A DNA stretch of 47,498 nt. It comes from a virus (Duplodnaviria > Heunggongvirae > Uroviricota > Caudoviricetes). Location: the IMG/VR virus record IMGVR_UViG_2660238269_000006; one strand, written 5' to 3'. Under the pieces are notes generated by a model that saw only the letters and a program-made list of their open reading frames with translations, ran no database searches and was not told the origin of the DNA. This document shows, piece after piece, positions 1,306 to 7,942 of the stretch (position 1 is the first letter of the stretch; every line of letters begins with the position of its first letter). A program made the translations under genes and the position numbers.

Positions 1306-3744
1306 TTAAAAATCAGCCTGATTCGGGAACAGTTTTTGCCAGATAGCTGAAACGTATTTTGCCTGGTAACGCGCATCGTGCAGGGCATTATGGCGTTCAC
1401 CCTCAAATGTGATGACACTTCGAGCATCGAAATCCATCACCAGCCCCAGGGCAACAATCGTTCTTACATCACGATCATTGGTGTAACGCCACGGGCAGGG
1501 GATCTCCTGCCGTTCATATGAACGGCGTAAAATCACGTTGTCGAAGTTGGCTCCATTTCCCCAGACCTGAACAAAAAACTCACCGGAGTTTTCGTCTATA
1601 AATTCCCGTAATTGTAAAAGCGCATCATCAAGCGGTATTCGATCAGCTAAAATGGCGGCACGGGCTTCGCCAGAGCGTTGAAGCCACCATTCGATGGTGC
1701 TTATGTCTACAGTGCCGCCACATGTACCCATATCAATTATTTTGCTGAATTCAGGCCCCTGCTCTCCGGTTTGTGGATCGAAAAATACAGCGCCTATTGA
1801 GGCTATTGGTGCGTCAGGATTTTTGCCCATTGTTTCAAGGTCAATCATCAGATGGTGCCACAACCTGCTGGTGGATGTGATTTCACGATGACCGTTCACC
1901 TTAATTAAGGGATTTGCTGTCTCTCCTGTTTCATTATTGCCATTGGCATGTTGATCGCCTTCGGTGCACTCCTTGTTCGGGAGTCCGGCACTTTCCATTT
2001 CCTCCGGATCTTTTTCCCGGGCTTCATCCTGGCTTTCTTCGTTGAATGTCTCCTGGTAGGTTGCGTCCCCCATCACTGCGCCACAATCAGGGCAGTTACC
2101 ACCACCAGTCTGATTGCATGCGGTACAAACTTTTTCCTCTTCCTGTTGCACTACTGGTTCAGGTTGTTTCGTTTCTGGCTCGTTTTGTAACGCATTTGGG
2201 CTGTTTTGTTCCGCTTTCTGACCGTTCTGTTCCGTTTCTTGCTGGTTCTGGTTCACAGAATCGCAGGTTTCAATCCCCTTAACCCATTTCGAATCATTCG
2301 GGTCGCTAATCCCTTCAACAAACTCACCACGAGAAGCGGCAAGCAATTTGTCGGCATCTGGTCGACTGATGTCTGCTGCCTCCATAATTTTATTTACTTC
2401 TTCAGCAGTAACTTTTACCTGTGACTTGTCATCCAGCGGCTGCGGGTCCTGATGATGTTCAACTGTATCCGCTGCCATTGTTTCAGCCGTTGCCTGTTCA
2501 TCTGCCATTGCGCCAGATGGTTGCGGGTTTTCTTCATCATTTTTTTCTTCTTCTGTTTTGCACTCAGCAGCCAGTCCGCCGTTAATTTCTTCCAGGATAT
2601 CTTTTTCCGGTGTATGCCGGGCAGCCATGAGCGTTTCAGCTGTGGGATTCTCGTGATCAGTTTCTGTCAGGTTGGCATTGATATACCCCTGAAGGCGTCC
2701 CGGGTAGTGATAAAACTCAGGGTGGGCGCTCCGGATAAGTGCAAAAATAGCTGCGCGGGAATAGTCCAGGATACCAGGGGTTGCGCGAAGTGCTGCGGAC
2801 CATTCCCTGAACGGACTTTCTTTTTTCAGGACGATTTCTTTTGCGCGACGATAAACGCTCACGGGTATTTCATAAATATTAAAATCCATCGGAAGTGTGG
2901 CTGCTGCAGCCTCCACATCCAGAGTATCGAGGGTGTGTACTAAGTCAGGATTACGATCGGTTTTATTTCCGCCACCGGCATTTGCACCGGAAGCCGTGCG
3001 GGTGATGCGAGAAACACGATTTCCTTTCATCCACTCTTTTGTCAGCAGACCTCGATCGGTATAGTCAGCGTCCAGGTATGCTTCGAAAAAAGCAGTCATT
3101 AACCCCAGACTGGAATTAACGGGATTAGGGAAAACTTTGTCTGTGTCGCGTACCAGTTTGTGAAGGTCGCGAATCTCCAGCGGGTCGAGCAGCTTTGTGT
3201 TGTGGGAAATAGCCAGGGCAGTAACAGCCGGCAGTTCTTCAGCTCGTGCGATATGTAATGCCTGAAGTTCTTCCCGTGAAACGTGCGTTACCGGTTTTTC
3301 GCTGCCATGTTGCGCAAGCCAGCGAATGGGCAGTTCCTGACCGGAAATCGGCAGGAGCATATTATCCTCAATCTCAGCCATGTCTTCGCCATTGACGTTG
3401 GTATTGTCAGTGCTGGCTGGTTTGTCCTGAACTGAGGGGGAAGGCGCTATAAATATCATTGTGATGCCATCTTCCCCGCCTTTTTCATAGCGGTTGCAGA
3501 ATTCGGTATCAAACACGCCTTCCGGTGGAAGGTCATTCACAACGGGGAAATGGACGCGGACAGGTTTTTTGAAATCATCAGCGTCGTAGCCTGCCTCGTC
3601 CATTGCAACAACGCACCGTGAGATGGCAACAGATAATTTTTTTGCTGTAGTCCAGTAAAAACCTCCTTTAATCCCAAGGCGTTTTCTGACCTTGTCATTT
3701 TTTGCTTCGCAATATAGCGAAAATTCTTCTTTATCAGTGCTCAT
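1306..3744 (-). CDS. Large prophage exonuclease (812 aa) with a C-terminal DEDDh-type 3'-5' exonuclease domain
   Basis: C-terminal motifs [20 protein letters not shown] and [13 protein letters not shown] match DnaQ-like Exo I/II/III motifs; the N-terminal part is acidic with a CxxC...CxxC cluster. It sits where exo/recE lies in Rac-like prophages. Confidence 0.6.
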
Positions 3745-4805: not shown

Positions 4806-5590
4806 TAACTCACCACCGGAGGTAGCAATCTCATGGGTGGTGAGACGCACAGGGTTGCTACAACCGGTCATCATGGAACCCGGCCAGCCTTGCGGCTGCC
4901 CTGCACGCCCCACCATAATCTGAATGTGGCTGTGCATTACGCATAAAAAAACCGCCTGAGCGCGGTTATGCGCCATGATGAACATCGGGGTAGCAATCCC
5001 GGCACCCGCTTTATGAGGTGCAGGTGCACTATAATTCCACCCGTTCTGGTTTTCAATAGCTACATTCAACATTTTCTCTTACCTTTCATCACCGAAGTGA
5101 ACTTTGTCGATGCAGTGCCTGGTGCCTCCAGGTGACGTTAACCAGTTAACAATTAACGCCGGAATACAGAAGTATGCCCGTTACGCCCCGTAAAAGACCA
5201 CTTTACGGTTTTAACTGTTCCGCGTGCGCTTAGCCGCATTCACCGCATCACAAAATTCACTTTAAAAAGGGCGGACATCAGAAAGCTAATAAACTGATGC
5301 CGCCAAAGGTACCACTGCCATTGAAACATGGAGATGTTGTGGCGGGGTTGTCACTCAGGCATATGGTCAACCTGACAACCCGGTGTCCTCAATGAGGGGA
5401 AAAGAAATAAAAACCCCCAGCCATATTTACCGCCGCGCCATTTCGCGGATTGCCACAACCGGAAGCACACGGTCGAAGAAATCTAACGACAAGCCTTCTA
5501 AGGAAAAGACGCCTTCGCCGTGTGCTTTCTGTTGTGCCCTGACTTTTCAGGGTAAATTAACCAGTGGCAACCTGTTTTTACTGGTGCTAA

Positions 5591-5743
5591 TCAGTTAGTG
5601 TTTCTGGCTAACCAGCGACGCGCGCCAGCTTCGGTTTTAAACTTTTTACTTTTGGTATACGTCATCGCGGTAAACGTGCCGTCCTGGTTAGGGAACACAC
5701 CGCATACCAGAGATTCGTTGTTGCCAAGATTGAGCGTATCCAT
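5591..5743 (-). CDS. YdaF-like small protein
   Basis: MDTLNLGNNESLVCGVFPNQDGTFTAMTYTKSKKFKTEAGARRWLARNTN resembles the Rac prophage YdaF family as I recall it; RBS GAGG upstream of the ATG at 5741-5743. Confidence 0.5.
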   Translation of the reverse strand: MDTLNLGNNESLVCGVFPNQDGTFTAMTYTKSKKFKTEAGARRWLARNTN

Positions 5744-5920
5744 GTTGACCTCATTTCCCCTTAACGCCGGGGTAGCGGAACAAAAAACCTGCTGCATAGT
5801 TAAACGTAATCCCCGCCGTCATGTTCATACGCCTCAGGCTGGCTACTTAACCCCTGACCACTGCCGGGTAACTCGAAGTATTGCCCTGCGTTCTGTGGGG
5901 CGGGGTGGGTTTATGGATAC

Positions 5921-6017
5921 AATTTACAAATTAAAATTTAACTGGTCAACATGTTTATTATTAAATTTGTAATTGCGAGCTGTTGCATCAGTCCCAAAAT
6001 GGGACTACTATACAGTT
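5921..6017 (+). promoter_or_regulatory. higBA promoter/operator region with inverted repeat TTACAAAT...ATTTGTAA
   Basis: Inverted half-sites ttacaaatt (5924-5932) and aatttgtaa (5964-5972) with AAATTT-rich spacer directly upstream of higB. Confidence 0.4.
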
Positions 6018-6320
6018 ATGAAGATTATCTCAGTTAAAACACTCAGGGATTTTTGGGCGGAGAATCCTGATGCAGAACAACCGCTAAGGGCATGGGTGGA
6101 TGAGGCGGCAAAAGCTGACTGGAAAAGCCCAGCAGACATTAAGGCACAATACCGAACGGCCAGTATATTGAAAAACCGGCGCGTGGTATTCAACATAAAA
6201 GGTAATCATTACCGTTTAATTGTTGCAATTGCGTATCAGCGAGGATGGGTATTTGTTAAATTCATCGGAAACCACAAGGAATACGATGCTATTGATGCTG
6301 ATACCATCGAACTGGAGTAA
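6018..6320 (+). CDS. higB: Type II toxin HigB (RelE/ParE superfamily mRNA interferase)
   Basis: 100-aa protein MKIISVKTLRDFWAENPD...NIKGNHYRLIVAIAYQRGWVFVKFIGNHKEYD matches the HigB family pattern and is followed 3 nt later by an HTH antitoxin. Confidence 0.7.
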   Translation: MKIISVKTLRDFWAENPDAEQPLRAWVDEAAKADWKSPADIKAQYRTASILKNRRVVFNIKGNHYRLIVAIAYQRGWVFVKFIGNHKEYDAIDADTIELE

Positions 6321-6322
6321 GC

Positions 6323-6682
6323 ATGAACATCAAACCTATTCGTACAGAGCAAGATTATGAAGCCGCGTTGCGTGCTGTTGAACCCATGTTCGACAATGAG
6401 CCCGAAATTGACACGCCTGAGGGGGATTTTTTTGAGGTGATGTGTTTGCTAATAGAGGAATATGAAAAAAAACATTATCCCATTGAGCCACCATCCCCAA
6501 TTGAAGCTATAAGATTTCGCATGGAACAGCAGGGGCTGACTGTGAAAGATTTGGAACCCGCAATTGGGAAAAAAAATCGGGTTTATGAGGTGTTGAATGG
6601 TACCAGAAGCCTTACGTTACCAATGATTCGCCGTCTTCATAATCAATTTGGTATCCCCCTGGAAAGCCTGGTTGGATTATAA
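6323..6682 (+). CDS. higA: Antitoxin HigA (HTH-XRE)
   Basis: C-terminal HTH (LTVKDLEPAIGKKNRVYEVLNGTRSLTLPMIRRLHNQFGIPLESL) typical of HigA; gene order toxin then antitoxin is the HigBA arrangement. Confidence 0.7.
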   Translation: MNIKPIRTEQDYEAALRAVEPMFDNEPEIDTPEGDFFEVMCLLIEEYEKKHYPIEPPSPIEAIRFRMEQQGLTVKDLEPAIGKKNRVYEVLNGTRSLTLPMIRRLHNQFGIPLESLVGL

Positions 6683-6728
6683 AATCTGCTAGTCATTTGC
6701 CTGATGCTCGTTCCAGAAAAGGAATGCA

Positions 6729-7121
6729 TCAGGCAGTTTTGTTTTTCTGCCGCAGTAACTCTTCAAGTTTCCGTTTATAGAAATCGCGTTTTTGCTCCAT
6801 ATCACGAATGATCTGCTCTGCGTCGCTTTGAGGTAACTCATCTAAAAGCGATATGATTTTTCGTTGTTGTTCTGTAAGTTGCGGTTGGTTGTCATTACTG
6901 GATACAGCCATTTTATCGCCGAGAGTTTCTTCTTCCATAAAGAACCAATGGACGGGATGTTGTGAGAGCTCTGCTAATTTTTCCAGTTTATCCATTCTTG
7001 GCATCACGCCTTTCAACCAACCTTGCACGGATTGGGGTTTTACACCAAGACGTCTTCCCAGCTCTGACTGGTTTATATTCAATTCCTGCAACACCTGCTG
7101 AAGGCGTTTTACAAAGATCAT
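6729..7121 (-). CDS. CI-like prophage repressor (HTH-XRE, no peptidase domain)
   Basis: HTH motif NQSELGRRLGVKPQSVQGWLKG; divergently transcribed from a Cro-like gene across an operator-rich intergenic region. ATG at 7119-7121; the ORF track extends to the GTG at 7127. Confidence 0.65.
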   Translation of the reverse strand: MIFVKRLQQVLQELNINQSELGRRLGVKPQSVQGWLKGVMPRMDKLEKLAELSQHPVHWFFMEEETLGDKMAVSSNDNQPQLTEQQRKIISLLDELPQSDAEQIIRDMEQKRDFYKRKLEELLRQKNKTA

Positions 7122-7127
7122 CACCAC

Positions 7128-7247
7128 CCCTCGTAAACTAGTTCCGCGATCCTACAGAAAAAATTGATAAGTGGCATTACAAATAGAAGTTGAAATTTAA
7201 ATTTAAATTTGTAATCATCGGTGTCATCGTAAAGTTCGGAGGGAAAC
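7128..7247. promoter_or_regulatory. Immunity switch: divergent promoter/operator region
   Basis: Inverted repeat attacaaat (7176-7184) / atttgtaat (7207-7215) flanking three tandem AAATTT repeats, between the divergent repressor and Cro-like genes. Confidence 0.5.
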
Positions 7248-7508
7248 ATGCAAAAAAGTACTCAAGTGAAAATCCTGTCAATAATGAGCCAATCAGAATT
7301 AGGGCGTCGTCTTGGTAAAACACCGCAAACCATAAGTGGGTGGTTTAAAAAACGAGTGCCAGCGGAGGAGGTTATACCAGCATGTGAGGCGCTTGACTGG
7401 GGAGTAACTCCGCATGAATTGCGCCCTGATAAATACCCTAATCCAACCGATGGTTTACCTGTTGAGTATCAGGCTAACGCACAAGCAGCGGCGGGAGTTG
7501 ATTCATGA
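7248..7508 (+). CDS. Cro-like / YdaS-like HTH regulator
   Basis: HTH motif SQSELGRRLGKTPQTISGWFKK; RBS GGAGGG upstream; divergent from the repressor. Confidence 0.6.
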   Translation: MQKSTQVKILSIMSQSELGRRLGKTPQTISGWFKKRVPAEEVIPACEALDWGVTPHELRPDKYPNPTDGLPVEYQANAQAAAGVDS

Positions 7509-7942
7509 AAATCAAGCATGAGCACATCCGCATGGCGATGAATGCGTGGCTGCTTTATCCGAGGGTAGGGCGCAAAAAAATCGCTGATGATATAGCGACA
7601 GCATATTTTGAGCTTGAAATGACTTATCCACCAATGCATGACACCTCTACGACAGAGGGTATTGGATTGAATATACAAAATATTTTTCGCTGGCTTGAAA
7701 AGGATACGCCTGATGCTGTTGAAAAAATTCAGGCACTAATTCCGGCTATCCTGACTGTTCTTCCGCGTGAACTGCGTTATCACCTCAGTATTTTTGACAC
7801 TGTTGAGCGCCGTGCATTACTGGCGGCGCAGGAAGCGTTGAGCACGGCAATTGATGCACATGATGATGCTGTCCAGGCCGTTTACCGGAAAGCGTATTTC
7901 AGCGACGGCGGGTCATCCGGCGAGTCTGTTGTGGTGCATTGA
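7505..7942 (+). CDS. YdaT-like protein (Rac-type regulatory/toxin-like protein)
   Basis: Begins MKIKHEHI... and ends ...LLAAQEALSTAIDAHDDAVQAVYRKAYFSDGGSSGESVVVH, as I recall for Rac YdaT; start overlaps the Cro-like stop (ATGA). Confidence 0.55.
   Translation: MKIKHEHIRMAMNAWLLYPRVGRKKIADDIATAYFELEMTYPPMHDTSTTEGIGLNIQNIFRWLEKDTPDAVEKIQALIPAILTVLPRELRYHLSIFDTVERRALLAAQEALSTAIDAHDDAVQAVYRKAYFSDGGSSGESVVVH

What the first reader, a model, noticed from the sequence alone, without database searches (positions are those of the whole stretch)
5924..7215. Same 8-bp inverted half-sites upstream of higBA and in the immunity operator
The higBA upstream region has TTACAAAT (5924-5931) and ATTTGTAA (5965-5972). 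The repressor/Cro intergenic region has the same pair (7177-7184 and 7207-7214), in both cases around AAATTT-rich spacers. This suggests one DNA-binding protein (the CI-like repressor, Cro-like protein or HigA) recognises both, coupling the toxin-antitoxin module to the lysogeny switch. Because both regions are AT-rich, chance similarity is possible.
Basis: seen in the sequence. Interest (0 to 1): 0.55.

Follow-up and report, generated by a model that had tools for sequence, protein, structure and literature searches.

The report
Prophage left and right operators (OL/OR)
The repeated TTACAAAT/ATTTGTAA pairs are real and not chance, but they are the ordinary left and right operators of a lambda-like E. 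coli prophage's repressor/Cro switch; the HigBA toxin-antitoxin cassette merely sits between them and carries its own, different operator.

Summary
Observation confirmed: TTACAAAT occurs exactly four times in 47.5 kb, as two inverted pairs at 5924-5972 and 7177-7214. In a local AT-rich null model such a shared pair arose in at most 2 of 20,000 trials.

Interpretation only partly right. The window is an E. coli lambdoid prophage of the Qin/Rac/CP-933P type. Site 7177-7214 is OR, between a short PaaR2/DicA-like repressor and a YdaS/Cro-like gene. Site 5924-5972 is OL, wrapped around the leftward early promoter PL (the dicBp equivalent) that drives ydfA-Rha-dicB-exo.

Relatives of the repressor in Arsenophonus, Sodalis and Serratia have no higBA. 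They still carry almost the same OL palindrome at the same place.

Conversely, none of 76 higBA loci outside this prophage type has the motif upstream of higB. Most of the closer relatives carry GTCCC-N5-GGGAC between the -35 and -10 elements, and the window has it at 5990-6006. More distant loci carry a related GACC-N5-GGTC.

Three other immunity types each share their own type-specific repeats between PL and OR. Repressor and Cro have near-identical helix-turn-helix motifs; HigA's is unrelated.

Verdict: standard OL/OR of a not yet characterised immunity specificity, with higBA as a cargo gene in the rexAB/paaA2-parE2 slot. Residual possibility: the right OL arm lies 10 bp from the higBA -35 and might modulate it.

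The parts
5924..5972 (.). OL: inverted pair TTACAAAT (5924-5931) / ATTTGTAA (5965-5972) flanking the PL -35
   Evidence: Searches confirm the sequence. The TACAAAT core, the GTCAA (-35) and the right arm are conserved from E. coli to Arsenophonus, Sodalis and Serratia, including loci without higBA. Homology with other immunity types breaks at about 5911, just left of it.
5921..5949 (-). PL (dicBp equivalent): -35 TTGACC 5949-5944, 17-nt spacer, -10 TAAATT 5926-5921, overlapping the left OL arm
   Evidence: Promoter scan, 9 of 12 matches. The -35 is invariant in alignment A3. Position and role match dicBp in Qin (PMC10448788) and PL933P (PMC8630535).
5744..5915 (-). Conserved leader of the PL transcript, upstream of ydfA
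   Evidence: Conserved in about 3000 E. coli genomes, and its core is conserved in Sodalis and Arsenophonus. No Rfam match. No structural support.
5591..5743 (-). ydfA (DUF1391), first gene of the leftward early operon
   Evidence: Pfam DUF1391, E=1.5e-29. RefSeq annotation.
5983..6011 (+). Predicted higBA promoter: -35 TTGCAT 5983-5988, 17-nt spacer, -10 TACTAT 6006-6011. The start site would be about 6018, which is the higB ATG, so the mRNA would be leaderless. This is inferred.
   Evidence: Read from the sequence. It falls below the scan threshold. The same TTG...-palindrome-TAnnAT layout recurs, about 26 nt before the ATG, in unrelated contexts.
5990..6006 (.). Candidate HigA operator AGTCCCAAAATGGGACT
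   Evidence: It travels with higBA in viral loci L029, L041 and L042 and in many of the 76 genome loci. The arms are conserved and the spacer varies. In alphaproteobacteria it changes to GACC-N5-GGTC together with HigA divergence. It is the only exact copy in the window.
6018..6320 (+). higB toxin
   Evidence: Pfam HigB_toxin, E=4.8e-33. RefSeq annotation.
6323..6682 (+). higA antitoxin (C-terminal HTH)
   Evidence: Pfam HTH_3. Homologous to the solved E. coli/Shigella HigA structures 5ifg and 5ycl, E about 3e-9.
6697..6746 (+). Intrinsic terminator of higBA: hairpin 6697-6736 plus U-tract 6737-6746. It overlaps the 3' end of the convergent repressor gene.
   Evidence: Free energy -23.5 kcal/mol, z = -3.5. 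There is no U-tract on the minus strand.
6729..7121 (-). Prophage repressor: 130 aa, N-terminal HTH, no S24 peptidase domain. PaaR2/DicA/RacR type.
   Evidence: Pfam finds HTH_3 and the related HTH_26 only. 31% identity over its full length to the repressor of a paaR-relB-parE type prophage. The HTH is identical in homologues down to 52% overall identity.
7152..7170 (.). Possible third, weaker OR element CTACAGAAAAAATTGATAA next to the repressor start (inferred)
   Evidence: CTACA(G/A)AA is conserved in all 8 OR regions aligned.
7177..7214 (.). OR: TTACAAAT (7177-7184) / ATTTGTAA (7207-7214). It can be read as two abutting 19-bp pseudo-dyads of the form TTRCAA-N7-TTGYAA (7177-7195 and 7196-7214).
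   Evidence: repeat I5. The positions are conserved in 8 homologous OR regions, and Sodalis has a perfect TTGCAA-N7-TTGCAA.
7190..7218 (+). pR: -35 TTGAAA, 17-nt spacer, TG-extended -10 AATCAT, overlapped by the right OR arm
   Evidence: Promoter scan, 9 of 12 matches with TG. TTGAAATTT is conserved in alignment A4.
7248..7508 (+). Cro-like YdaS-family regulator
   Evidence: Pfam YdaS_toxin and HTH_3. Its HTH is 58% identical and 77% similar to the repressor's over 26 residues, E=2e-9.
7498..7515 (+). YdaT box TTGATTcatgaaAATCAA spanning the ydaT start codon
   Evidence: Exact match to the published TTGATT-N6-AATCAA consensus, and the only one in the window. Consensus from PMC9986795 and PMC11879457.
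7505..7942 (+). YdaT (CII analogue)
   Evidence: Pfam YdaT_toxin, E=1.2e-10.

Best explanation
The two inverted TTACAAAT/ATTTGTAA pairs are the left (OL, 5924-5972) and right (OR, 7177-7214) operators of a lambdoid E. coli prophage of the Qin/Rac/CP-933P kind.

The 130-aa PaaR2/DicA-like repressor (6729-7121) and the YdaS/Cro-like protein (7248-7508) carry nearly the same helix-turn-helix. I infer that both bind these sites.

At each site one arm overlaps the -10 region of an early lytic promoter, and the other arm lies upstream of its -35. At OL the promoter is PL, which fires leftward into ydfA-Rha-dicB-exo. At OR it is pR, which fires rightward into cro-ydaT-replication. Occupancy by repressor would therefore shut both early operons, as in lambda.

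higBA is a self-contained cargo cassette (a moron) lodged between OL and the repressor gene. This is the slot used by rexAB in lambda and by paaA2-parE2 in CP-933P. The cassette has its own promoter, its own HigA operator (GTCCC-N5-GGGAC, 5990-6006) and its own terminator.

Shown here: sequence, statistics, gene identities, and the comparative dissociation of the two motifs. Inferred: actual binding, promoter activity and operator boundaries.
For: (1) The window is 100% identical to an E. coli chromosome. The gene order there is exo-dicB-Rha-ydfA | higB-higA | HTH repressor | YdaS-like | YdaT | replication.

(2) A sigma-70-like promoter faces ydfA. Its -35 lies between the two arms and its -10 overlaps the left arm. 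A mirror-image layout is found at pR.

(3) The module boundary fits OL. Similarity to about 3000 other E. coli prophages ends at about 5911, just left of the palindrome. Each of three searches (the combined region, higBA alone, the immunity region alone) found 148 genomes with at least 80% coverage, and the combined query needed both parts in one place.

(4) Repressor without higBA. Arsenophonus (52% identity) has CTACAAATTAAAATTTAA-ACTGTCAACATG-ATTTATAATTTAATTTGTAAT directly after the conserved leader. Sodalis (71%) and Serratia (58%) have the same architecture.

(5) higBA without this repressor. None of 76 genome loci, and none of the viral loci L029-34, L041 and L042, has TACAAAT/ATTTGTA upstream of higB. 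They carry GTCCC-N5-GGGAC, or GACC-N5-GGTC in more distant HigA lineages.

(6) The rule is general. A CP-933P-like type, the Tritos/Rac-like type (two loci) and a Qin-like type each share their own type-specific repeats of 8 nt or more between the PL region and OR.

(7) The repressor HTH (QSELGRRLGVKPQSVQGWLKG) is invariant across homologues that keep the TACAAAT-type sites. It differs in the PaaR2-type repressor, whose operators differ. The Cro HTH resembles the repressor's. HigA's does not.

(8) Experimental precedent in homologous systems. PaaR2 and YdaS footprint OR and repress a PL with OL1-3 in CP-933P (PMC8630535). DicA represses dicBp upstream of ydfA through operators like those of dicA-dicC (PMC10448788).

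(9) The match is not chance.
Against: No binding or expression data exist for this immunity type. Everything rests on sequence and on analogy.

The exact operator unit is unresolved. The 8-mers are 30 and 41 bp apart centre to centre, too far for one HTH dimer. Each arm must therefore belong to its own operator, and the inner half-sites of those operators are weak, especially at OL.

In every E. coli and Salmonella locus with a repressor of at least 74% identity, higBA is also present. The separation of OL from higBA therefore depends on more distant relatives (52-71% identity).

Two Salmonella homologue loci that carry other cargo (L082, L084) did not show a clear OL within the 3 kb fetched.
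Confidence: 0.85

Rival explanations
1. Extension rather than strict rival. The sites are OL/OR, but repressor or Cro bound at the right OL arm also modulates the divergent higBA promoter. TA expression would then track the lysogenic or lytic state.
For: The right arm (5965-5972) ends 10 bp upstream of the predicted higBA -35 (5983-5988), at about -53 to -46. The same 10-bp gap is kept in the Salmonella version although the spacer sequence differs.

Free-standing higBA cassettes usually carry a second, distal HigA palindrome starting about 56 nt before the ATG. That is the position the OL arm occupies here.

In CP-933P a TA pair in the same slot is under switch control, because it is co-transcribed with paaR2.
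Against: The OL arm is at the same place in relatives that lack higBA, so it was not shaped for higBA. Single-operator higBA loci without a distal palindrome exist elsewhere, for example L096 and L100. A centre near -50 is not a classical activator or repressor position. There are no expression data.
Confidence: 0.2
2. HigA, or the HigBA complex, recognises TTACAAAT at both loci and so ties the switch to the TA module.
For: HigA has an HTH and the left site is upstream of higB.
Against: None of 76 higBA loci in other genomes has the motif. A different palindrome travels with HigA and co-varies with it. The motif persists in prophages without higBA. The HigA HTH is unrelated to the repressor and Cro HTH.
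Confidence: 0.03
3. Chance resemblance of two AT-rich promoter regions.
For: Both regions are 75-78% AT. A degenerate version of the motif (YTRCARWT) is not enriched in the window, with 22 matches against 27 expected.
Against: The shared inverted 8-mer arose in at most 2 of 20,000 AT-matched simulations. The arms match over 17 of 18 nt. The cores are conserved islands among diverged relatives.
Confidence: 0.02
4. The repeats are promoter elements or sites for a host nucleoid protein (-35-like TTACAA, UP elements, IHF or Fis), not repressor operators.
For: TTACAA resembles TTGACA. Part of the left OL arm overlaps the PL -10, so some of its conservation could be promoter-driven.
Against: No hexamer partner sits at the right spacing for these to be -35 elements. 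The motifs are immunity-type specific and change together at PL and OR in four types. Host-factor sites would not do this.
Confidence: 0.03

Closest known systems
CP-933P immunity region of E. coli O157:H7 (PaaR2 repressor, YdaS Cro-like, YdaT CII-like; PR/PRM with operators, PL933P with OL1-3; paaA2-parE2 TA) - PMC8630535
   Same: The repressor is homologous over its full length to the repressor of a paaR-relB-parE type prophage (31% identity), and both are short with no S24 domain. The YdaS-like and YdaT-like neighbours are the same. The YdaT box is the same. A TA pair sits between the repressor gene and PL. The repeats at PL resemble those at OR. The PL -35 is flanked by inverted arms.
   Different: The operator sequence and the recognition helix differ. 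The TA here is higBA, on the opposite strand, convergent with the repressor, and has its own promoter, operator and terminator. It is not co-transcribed from PRM. No experimental data exist for this type.
Qin prophage dicA-dicC / dicBp (E. coli K-12) - PMC10448788 and references therein
   Same: The left operon is the same (ydfA-ydfB-ydfC-dicF-dicB). It is driven by a promoter upstream of ydfA that the CI-like repressor controls through operators resembling those of the repressor-cro intergenic region. The leader is conserved.
   Different: In Qin nothing is inserted between dicA and dicBp. The operator sequences are different.
Phage lambda OL/OR with rexAB between OL and cI
   Same: Two operator clusters share one motif. 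They overlap the two divergent early promoters. Cargo genes sit between OL and the repressor gene. Repressor and Cro use the same sites.
   Different: The repressor lacks the RecA-cleavable S24 domain. Each site shows two strong arms 30 or 41 bp apart rather than three evenly spaced 17-mers. A CII analogue of the YdaT family is present. No N gene is seen next to PL.
HigBA of E. coli K-12 / Shigella (PDB 5ifg, 5ycl) and type II TA autoregulation
   Same: HigA is homologous. HigB belongs to Pfam HigB_toxin. A palindrome lies inside the TA promoter, as expected for autoregulation by the antitoxin.
   Different: The palindrome assigned here (GTCCC-N5-GGGAC) is inferred from comparison only. This copy lacks the distal palindrome seen in most free-standing enterobacterial copies.

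Membership tests
Lambdoid bistable switch with OL/OR operators (Qin/Rac/CP-933P subtype) | Divergent repressor and cro-like genes separated by a short regulatory region that contains repeated sites | tested here: met
   Repressor 6729-7121 (-), cro-like gene 7248-7508 (+), with a 126-bp intergenic region carrying the inverted pair.
Lambdoid bistable switch with OL/OR operators (Qin/Rac/CP-933P subtype) | The same motif recurs at a second site overlapping the leftward early promoter, beyond the repressor gene | tested here: met
   The 5924-5972 pair flanks the -35 and overlaps the -10 of a predicted promoter facing ydfA.
Lambdoid bistable switch with OL/OR operators (Qin/Rac/CP-933P subtype) | Operator sequences are immunity-specific and change together at OL and OR in heteroimmune relatives | tested here: met
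   Four immunity types each have their own shared repeats at the PL region and OR. The homology break at about 5911 places OL inside the immunity module.
Lambdoid bistable switch with OL/OR operators (Qin/Rac/CP-933P subtype) | OL is independent of whatever cargo lies between it and the repressor gene | tested here: met
   Arsenophonus, Sodalis and Serratia loci without higBA keep the OL architecture.
Lambdoid bistable switch with OL/OR operators (Qin/Rac/CP-933P subtype) | Repressor and Cro physically bind the sites and repress PL and pR | not testable with these tools
   Indirect support only: the two HTH motifs are similar, and homologous systems have been tested experimentally.
Lambda CI / LexA-like cleavable repressors | C-terminal S24 peptidase domain that allows RecA-stimulated autocleavage | tested here: not met
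   The protein is 130 aa. Pfam finds only HTH_3 and HTH_26 at residues 6-51. It is therefore not filed as a lambda CI family member, although it works like one.
PaaR2/DicA/RacR-type short prophage repressors | Protein of about 130 aa with an N-terminal XRE-type HTH and a helical C-terminal part, encoded next to ydaS/ydaT-like genes | tested here: met
   Full-length alignment to a PaaR-type repressor, 31% identity, E=2e-21. Neighbours are YdaS_toxin and YdaT_toxin. One homologue is named DicA by its source.
YdaT (CII analogue) regulon | TTGATT-N6-AATCAA box over the ydaT start codon | tested here: met
   Exact match at 7498-7515 with the ATG in the spacer. Consensus taken.
HigA-autoregulated higBA operon | An antitoxin-specific palindrome overlaps the TA promoter and travels with the TA genes | tested here: met
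   GTCCC-N5-GGGAC lies at 5990-6006 between the predicted -35 and -10. It is present upstream of higB in other genomic contexts and co-varies with HigA divergence.
HigA-autoregulated higBA operon | TTACAAAT/ATTTGTAA is part of the HigA operator | tested here: not met
   None of 76 higBA loci has TACAAAT or ATTTGTA within 130 nt upstream of higB. It is also absent from viral loci that lack this repressor.

The most novel reading that the evidence does not exclude
In this immunity module the right OL arm has taken the place of the distal HigA operator of free-standing higBA cassettes. It sits about 56 nt before the higB ATG and 10 bp upstream of the -35. Under this reading, occupancy of OL by the prophage repressor in lysogens, or by Cro after induction, co-regulates the higBA promoter. 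TA expression would then report the state of the lysogeny switch. This would be a second, architecturally different way of wiring a TA pair into a prophage switch, besides co-transcription with the repressor as in paaR2-paaA2-parE2.
Probability: 0.18. Interest if true: 0.5.

Novelty: new member of a known kind. Interest (0 to 1): 0.2.

Why it matters
The result assigns the regulatory DNA of an immunity type found in 148 of 5,426 complete E. coli genomes (2.7%). Many of the listed carriers are human or bovine isolates. No record in the phage collection searched holds most of this region.

It defines testable OL, OR, PL, pR and HigA-operator coordinates.

It also shows that a TA cassette in the classical cargo slot between OL and the repressor gene is regulated by its own antitoxin site, not by the switch proteins. 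This corrects an attractive but unsupported cross-talk idea.

It does not change how lambdoid switches are understood.

Tried and rejected
(1) A genome-contig scan with the repressor found no confirmed relative. Distant homologues came from the protein search plus contig look-ups instead.

(2) Rfam at a permissive threshold over 5300-7600 gave no match.

(3) I tested whether the conserved PL leader (5744-5915) is a structured element such as a put- or nut-like RNA. The single-sequence fold is no better than shuffles (z = +0.88). The alignment fold gives only 9 weak pairs. The idea is not supported and was left open.

(4) The degenerate half-site YTRCARWT is not enriched in the window (22 matches against 27 expected). 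The degenerate consensus is useless for genome scanning; only the exact cores cluster.

(5) I tried to define the operator unit as the 19-bp dyad TTRCAA-N7-TTGYAA. It fits OR well, and Sodalis has a perfect copy. The inner halves at OL are poor, so this remains a tentative reading.

(6) No clear OL was found within 3 kb in two Salmonella loci that carry PLD or PaaA2/TM2 cargo.

(7) A literature search found no paper describing higBA in a lambdoid immunity region, and no open-access operator for E. coli K-12 HigA.

(8) The pRM position is unresolved. The scan offers ATGACA-16-TAAATT at 7227-7200. A weaker TATCAA -10 at 7169-7164 would fit a lambda-like OR3/PRM layout.
Full report
**Observation**

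An exact search finds no other copy on either strand of the 47.5-kb window. Shuffles expect 1.31 copies.

- The similarity is longer than reported. TTAAATTTGTAAT is identical at 5961-5973 and 7203-7215.
- The 18-nt arms 5924-5941 and 7197-7214 are 94% complementary.
- I modelled each region with its own first-order Markov chain. An 8-mer forming an inverted pair in both regions appeared in 0 of 20,000 trials for the full intergenic regions. It appeared in 2 of 20,000 trials when only the 75-78% AT cores were modelled.
This is not chance.

**What the locus is**

The region is 100% identical to the chromosome of E. coli strain 48. RefSeq annotation and Pfam give the gene order, left to right:

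- On the minus strand: exonuclease, DUF1482, dicB, a Rha-family protein and ydfA (DUF1391, 5591-5743).
- On the plus strand: higB (6018-6320) and higA (6323-6682).
- On the minus strand: a 130-aa HTH protein (6729-7121).
- On the plus strand: a YdaS-family HTH protein (7248-7508), YdaT (7505-7942) and replication genes.

This is the immunity region of a lambdoid prophage of the Qin/Rac/CP-933P kind. The 130-aa protein aligns over its whole length (31% identity, E=2e-21) with the repressor of a paaR-relB-parE type prophage. It has no S24 peptidase domain.

**The left site is OL/PL, not a higBA element**

Position and promoter:

- In lambda, OL/PL lies beyond the repressor gene, with cargo (rexAB) in between. 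It drives the leftward early operon.
- Here a sigma-70-like promoter points leftward toward ydfA. Its -35 is TTGACC (5949-5944), its spacer is 17 nt, and its -10 is TAAATT (5926-5921).
- The two arms flank the -35, and the left arm overlaps the -10.
- pR has the mirror arrangement. Its -35 is TTGAAA (7190-7195) and its TG-extended -10 is at 7213-7218. The right OR arm overlaps the -10 and the left arm lies 5 bp upstream of the -35.
- Relative to OR, OL has 11 extra base pairs between the -35 and the upstream arm. That is one helical turn.

Module boundary:

- Similarity to about 3000 other E. coli prophages covers the ydfA leader and stops at about 5911, just left of the palindrome.
- On the right, similarity to other immunity types resumes near 7400.
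- The block from OL to cro therefore behaves as one immunity cassette.
- Three separate searches (the combined 5400-7600 region, higBA with its upstream region, the immunity region) each found 148 genomes with at least 80% coverage. The combined query needs both parts in one place.
- No record in the phage collection covers most of the region.

**Dissociating the two candidate readers**

higBA without this repressor:

- A viral-contig scan found 49 loci with HigA relatives but only 23 with the repressor.
- Where higBA sits in unrelated phage contexts (HigA 94%, 86% and 75% identical; L029-34, L041, L042), the upstream region has no TACAAAT or ATTTGTA. It keeps a (A)GTCCC-N5-GGGAC(T) palindrome between a TTG... 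-35 and a TAnnAT -10.
- A genome scan added 80 loci from many bacterial orders, 76 of them with a higB homologue. None of the 76 has TACAAAT or ATTTGTA within 130 nt upstream of higB.
- Enterobacterial and betaproteobacterial loci have GTCCC-N5-GGGAC starting about 26 nt before the ATG. Many have a second copy at about -56.
- Alphaproteobacterial loci (HigA 55-59% identical) have GACC-N5-GGTC at the same place. The arms are conserved, the spacers vary, and the motif co-varies with the protein.
- The window has this palindrome at 5990-6006, between TTGCAT (5983-5988) and TACTAT (6006-6011). It is the only exact copy in the window. This, not TTACAAAT, is the likely HigA operator.

Repressor without higBA:

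- Homologues were found by protein search and their contigs fetched.
- The Arsenophonus locus (repressor 52% identical) has no TA genes. Directly after the conserved PL leader it carries AATCTACAAATTAAAATTTAAACTGTCAACATGATTTATAATTTAATTTGTAATT. This is almost the window's OL.
- Sodalis (71%) and Serratia (58%) have the same layout with small changes in the right arm.
- In alignment A3 the TACAAAT core and the GTCAA of the PL -35 are invariant in all seven sequences. To the right of the right arm, only the higBA-bearing loci remain alike.
- The OR regions of eight homologues align with conserved YTRCAAWT, TTGAAATTT (the pR -35), YTGYAAT and a further CTACA(G/A)AA element near the repressor start.

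**Generality and precedent**

- Three other immunity types of the same prophage family each share their own type-specific words of 8 nt or more between the PL region and OR. They are a CP-933P-like type, the Tritos/Rac-like type (seen in two loci) and a Qin-like type. In each case the repeats sit as inverted arms around a TTGAC -35.
- In CP-933P, PaaR2 and YdaS footprint the intergenic operators and repress a PL933P promoter that has OL1-3. There the TA pair paaA2-parE2 lies between the repressor gene and PL (PMC8630535).
- In Qin, DicA represses dicBp, the promoter upstream of ydfA, through operators like those between dicA and dicC (PMC10448788).
- The published YdaT box TTGATT-N6-AATCAA occurs exactly once in the window, at 7498-7515, across the ydaT start codon as in Rac and CP-933P.

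**Proteins**

- The repressor HTH (QSELGRRLGVKPQSVQGWLKG) is invariant from E. coli to Arsenophonus, in step with the conserved operator cores. It differs in the PaaR-type repressor, whose operators differ.
- The Cro-like protein has a closely similar HTH: 58% identity and 77% similarity over 26 residues. This fits both proteins using the same sites.
- HigA shows no HTH similarity to either. It is homologous to the solved E. coli and Shigella HigA structures.

**Mechanism proposed**

- Repressor bound at OL and OR occludes PL and pR.
- Cro-like protein competes for the same sites after induction.
- YdaT acts as the CII analogue at its own box.
- higBA is an autonomous unit. It has a promoter at 5983-6011, an operator at 5990-6006 and a probably leaderless higB start at 6018.
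- higBA ends at a strong terminator: a hairpin at 6697-6736 (-23.5 kcal/mol) followed by a U-tract that runs into the 3' end of the convergent repressor gene.

Binding, promoter activity, transcription starts and the exact operator unit are all inferred. The arms are too far apart (30 and 41 bp) for a single dimer. A 19-bp TTRCAA-N7-TTGYAA dyad fits OR, and Sodalis has a perfect copy, but it fits OL poorly.

**What is left of the coupling idea**

- The right OL arm ends 10 bp upstream of the predicted higBA -35. It occupies the position where free-standing cassettes usually have their distal HigA palindrome.
- Repressor or Cro at OL could therefore influence higBA.
- However, the arm is at the same place in prophages without higBA, so it was not built for that purpose. 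I give this reading about 0.2.

**Verdict**

This is a real and well-spotted repeat, with an ordinary explanation. It is the OL/OR pair of a not yet characterised immunity specificity within a known family, with higBA as cargo. The interest is low.

Noticed in passing
window 7498-7515: A perfect YdaT box, TTGATTcatgaaAATCAA, spans the ydaT start codon (ATG 7505-7507). It matches the consensus published for CP-933P and Rac YdaT and is the only match in the window.
   Followed up: yes
window 5983-6020; loci L094-L173, L029, L041, L042: Across the HigB/HigA family the promoter palindrome starts about 26 nt before the higB ATG, and the -10 ends 6-8 nt before it. This implies leaderless or nearly leaderless higB mRNAs. 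The palindrome changes from GTCCC-N5-GGGAC to GACC-N5-GGTC in alphaproteobacterial lineages, which is operator-antitoxin covariation.
   Followed up: partly
window 6697-6746: A strong hairpin (-23.5 kcal/mol) plus a U-tract terminates higBA inside the last codons of the convergent repressor gene. On the minus strand the hairpin has no U-tract, so repressor transcripts may read antisense into higA.
   Followed up: partly
window 5744-5915 (minus-strand RNA); L086, L093, L002, L003: The roughly 170-nt leader between PL and ydfA is conserved in about 3000 E. coli genomes. Its core, AAGTAGCCAGCCYGAGGCGTANGAACATGACGGC, is kept in Sodalis and Arsenophonus. There is no Rfam match and no convincing conserved fold, so its function is unknown. 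A protein-binding or antitermination role is not excluded.
   Followed up: partly
L035-L040, L044-L052, L054 (viral contigs), about 2230-3360: An orphan HigA homologue (about 93% identical to the window's) lies downstream of a different RelE/HigB-like toxin and VapI-type HigA pair, with no cognate higB. This suggests cassette replacement that left the antitoxin behind.
   Followed up: no
L175 3430-3480 and 3941-4040; L002 3002-3045 and 4035-4080: Other immunity types of the same prophage family have long inverted arms around the PL -35 that match their own OR. Examples are GGTTACCCATAGGTATTTA/TAAATACCCATGGGTAAC and CTACAATAAAAAACTGT/ACAGTTTTTAATTGTTG. These are ready-made operator predictions for those types.
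   Followed up: partly
L082/L083 3506-4780; L084 3454-4049; L091 3414-4038: The slot downstream of the repressor gene holds different cargo in different relatives: a PLD-domain protein, a lone PaaA2-like antitoxin next to a TM2-domain gene, and two small unknown genes. It is a variable cargo hotspot.
   Followed up: no
window 1306-3744 (-): An 812-aa ORF in the early-left operon. RefSeq splits the corresponding region in the identical genome into an exonuclease and a partial RecE-family pseudogene.
   Followed up: no
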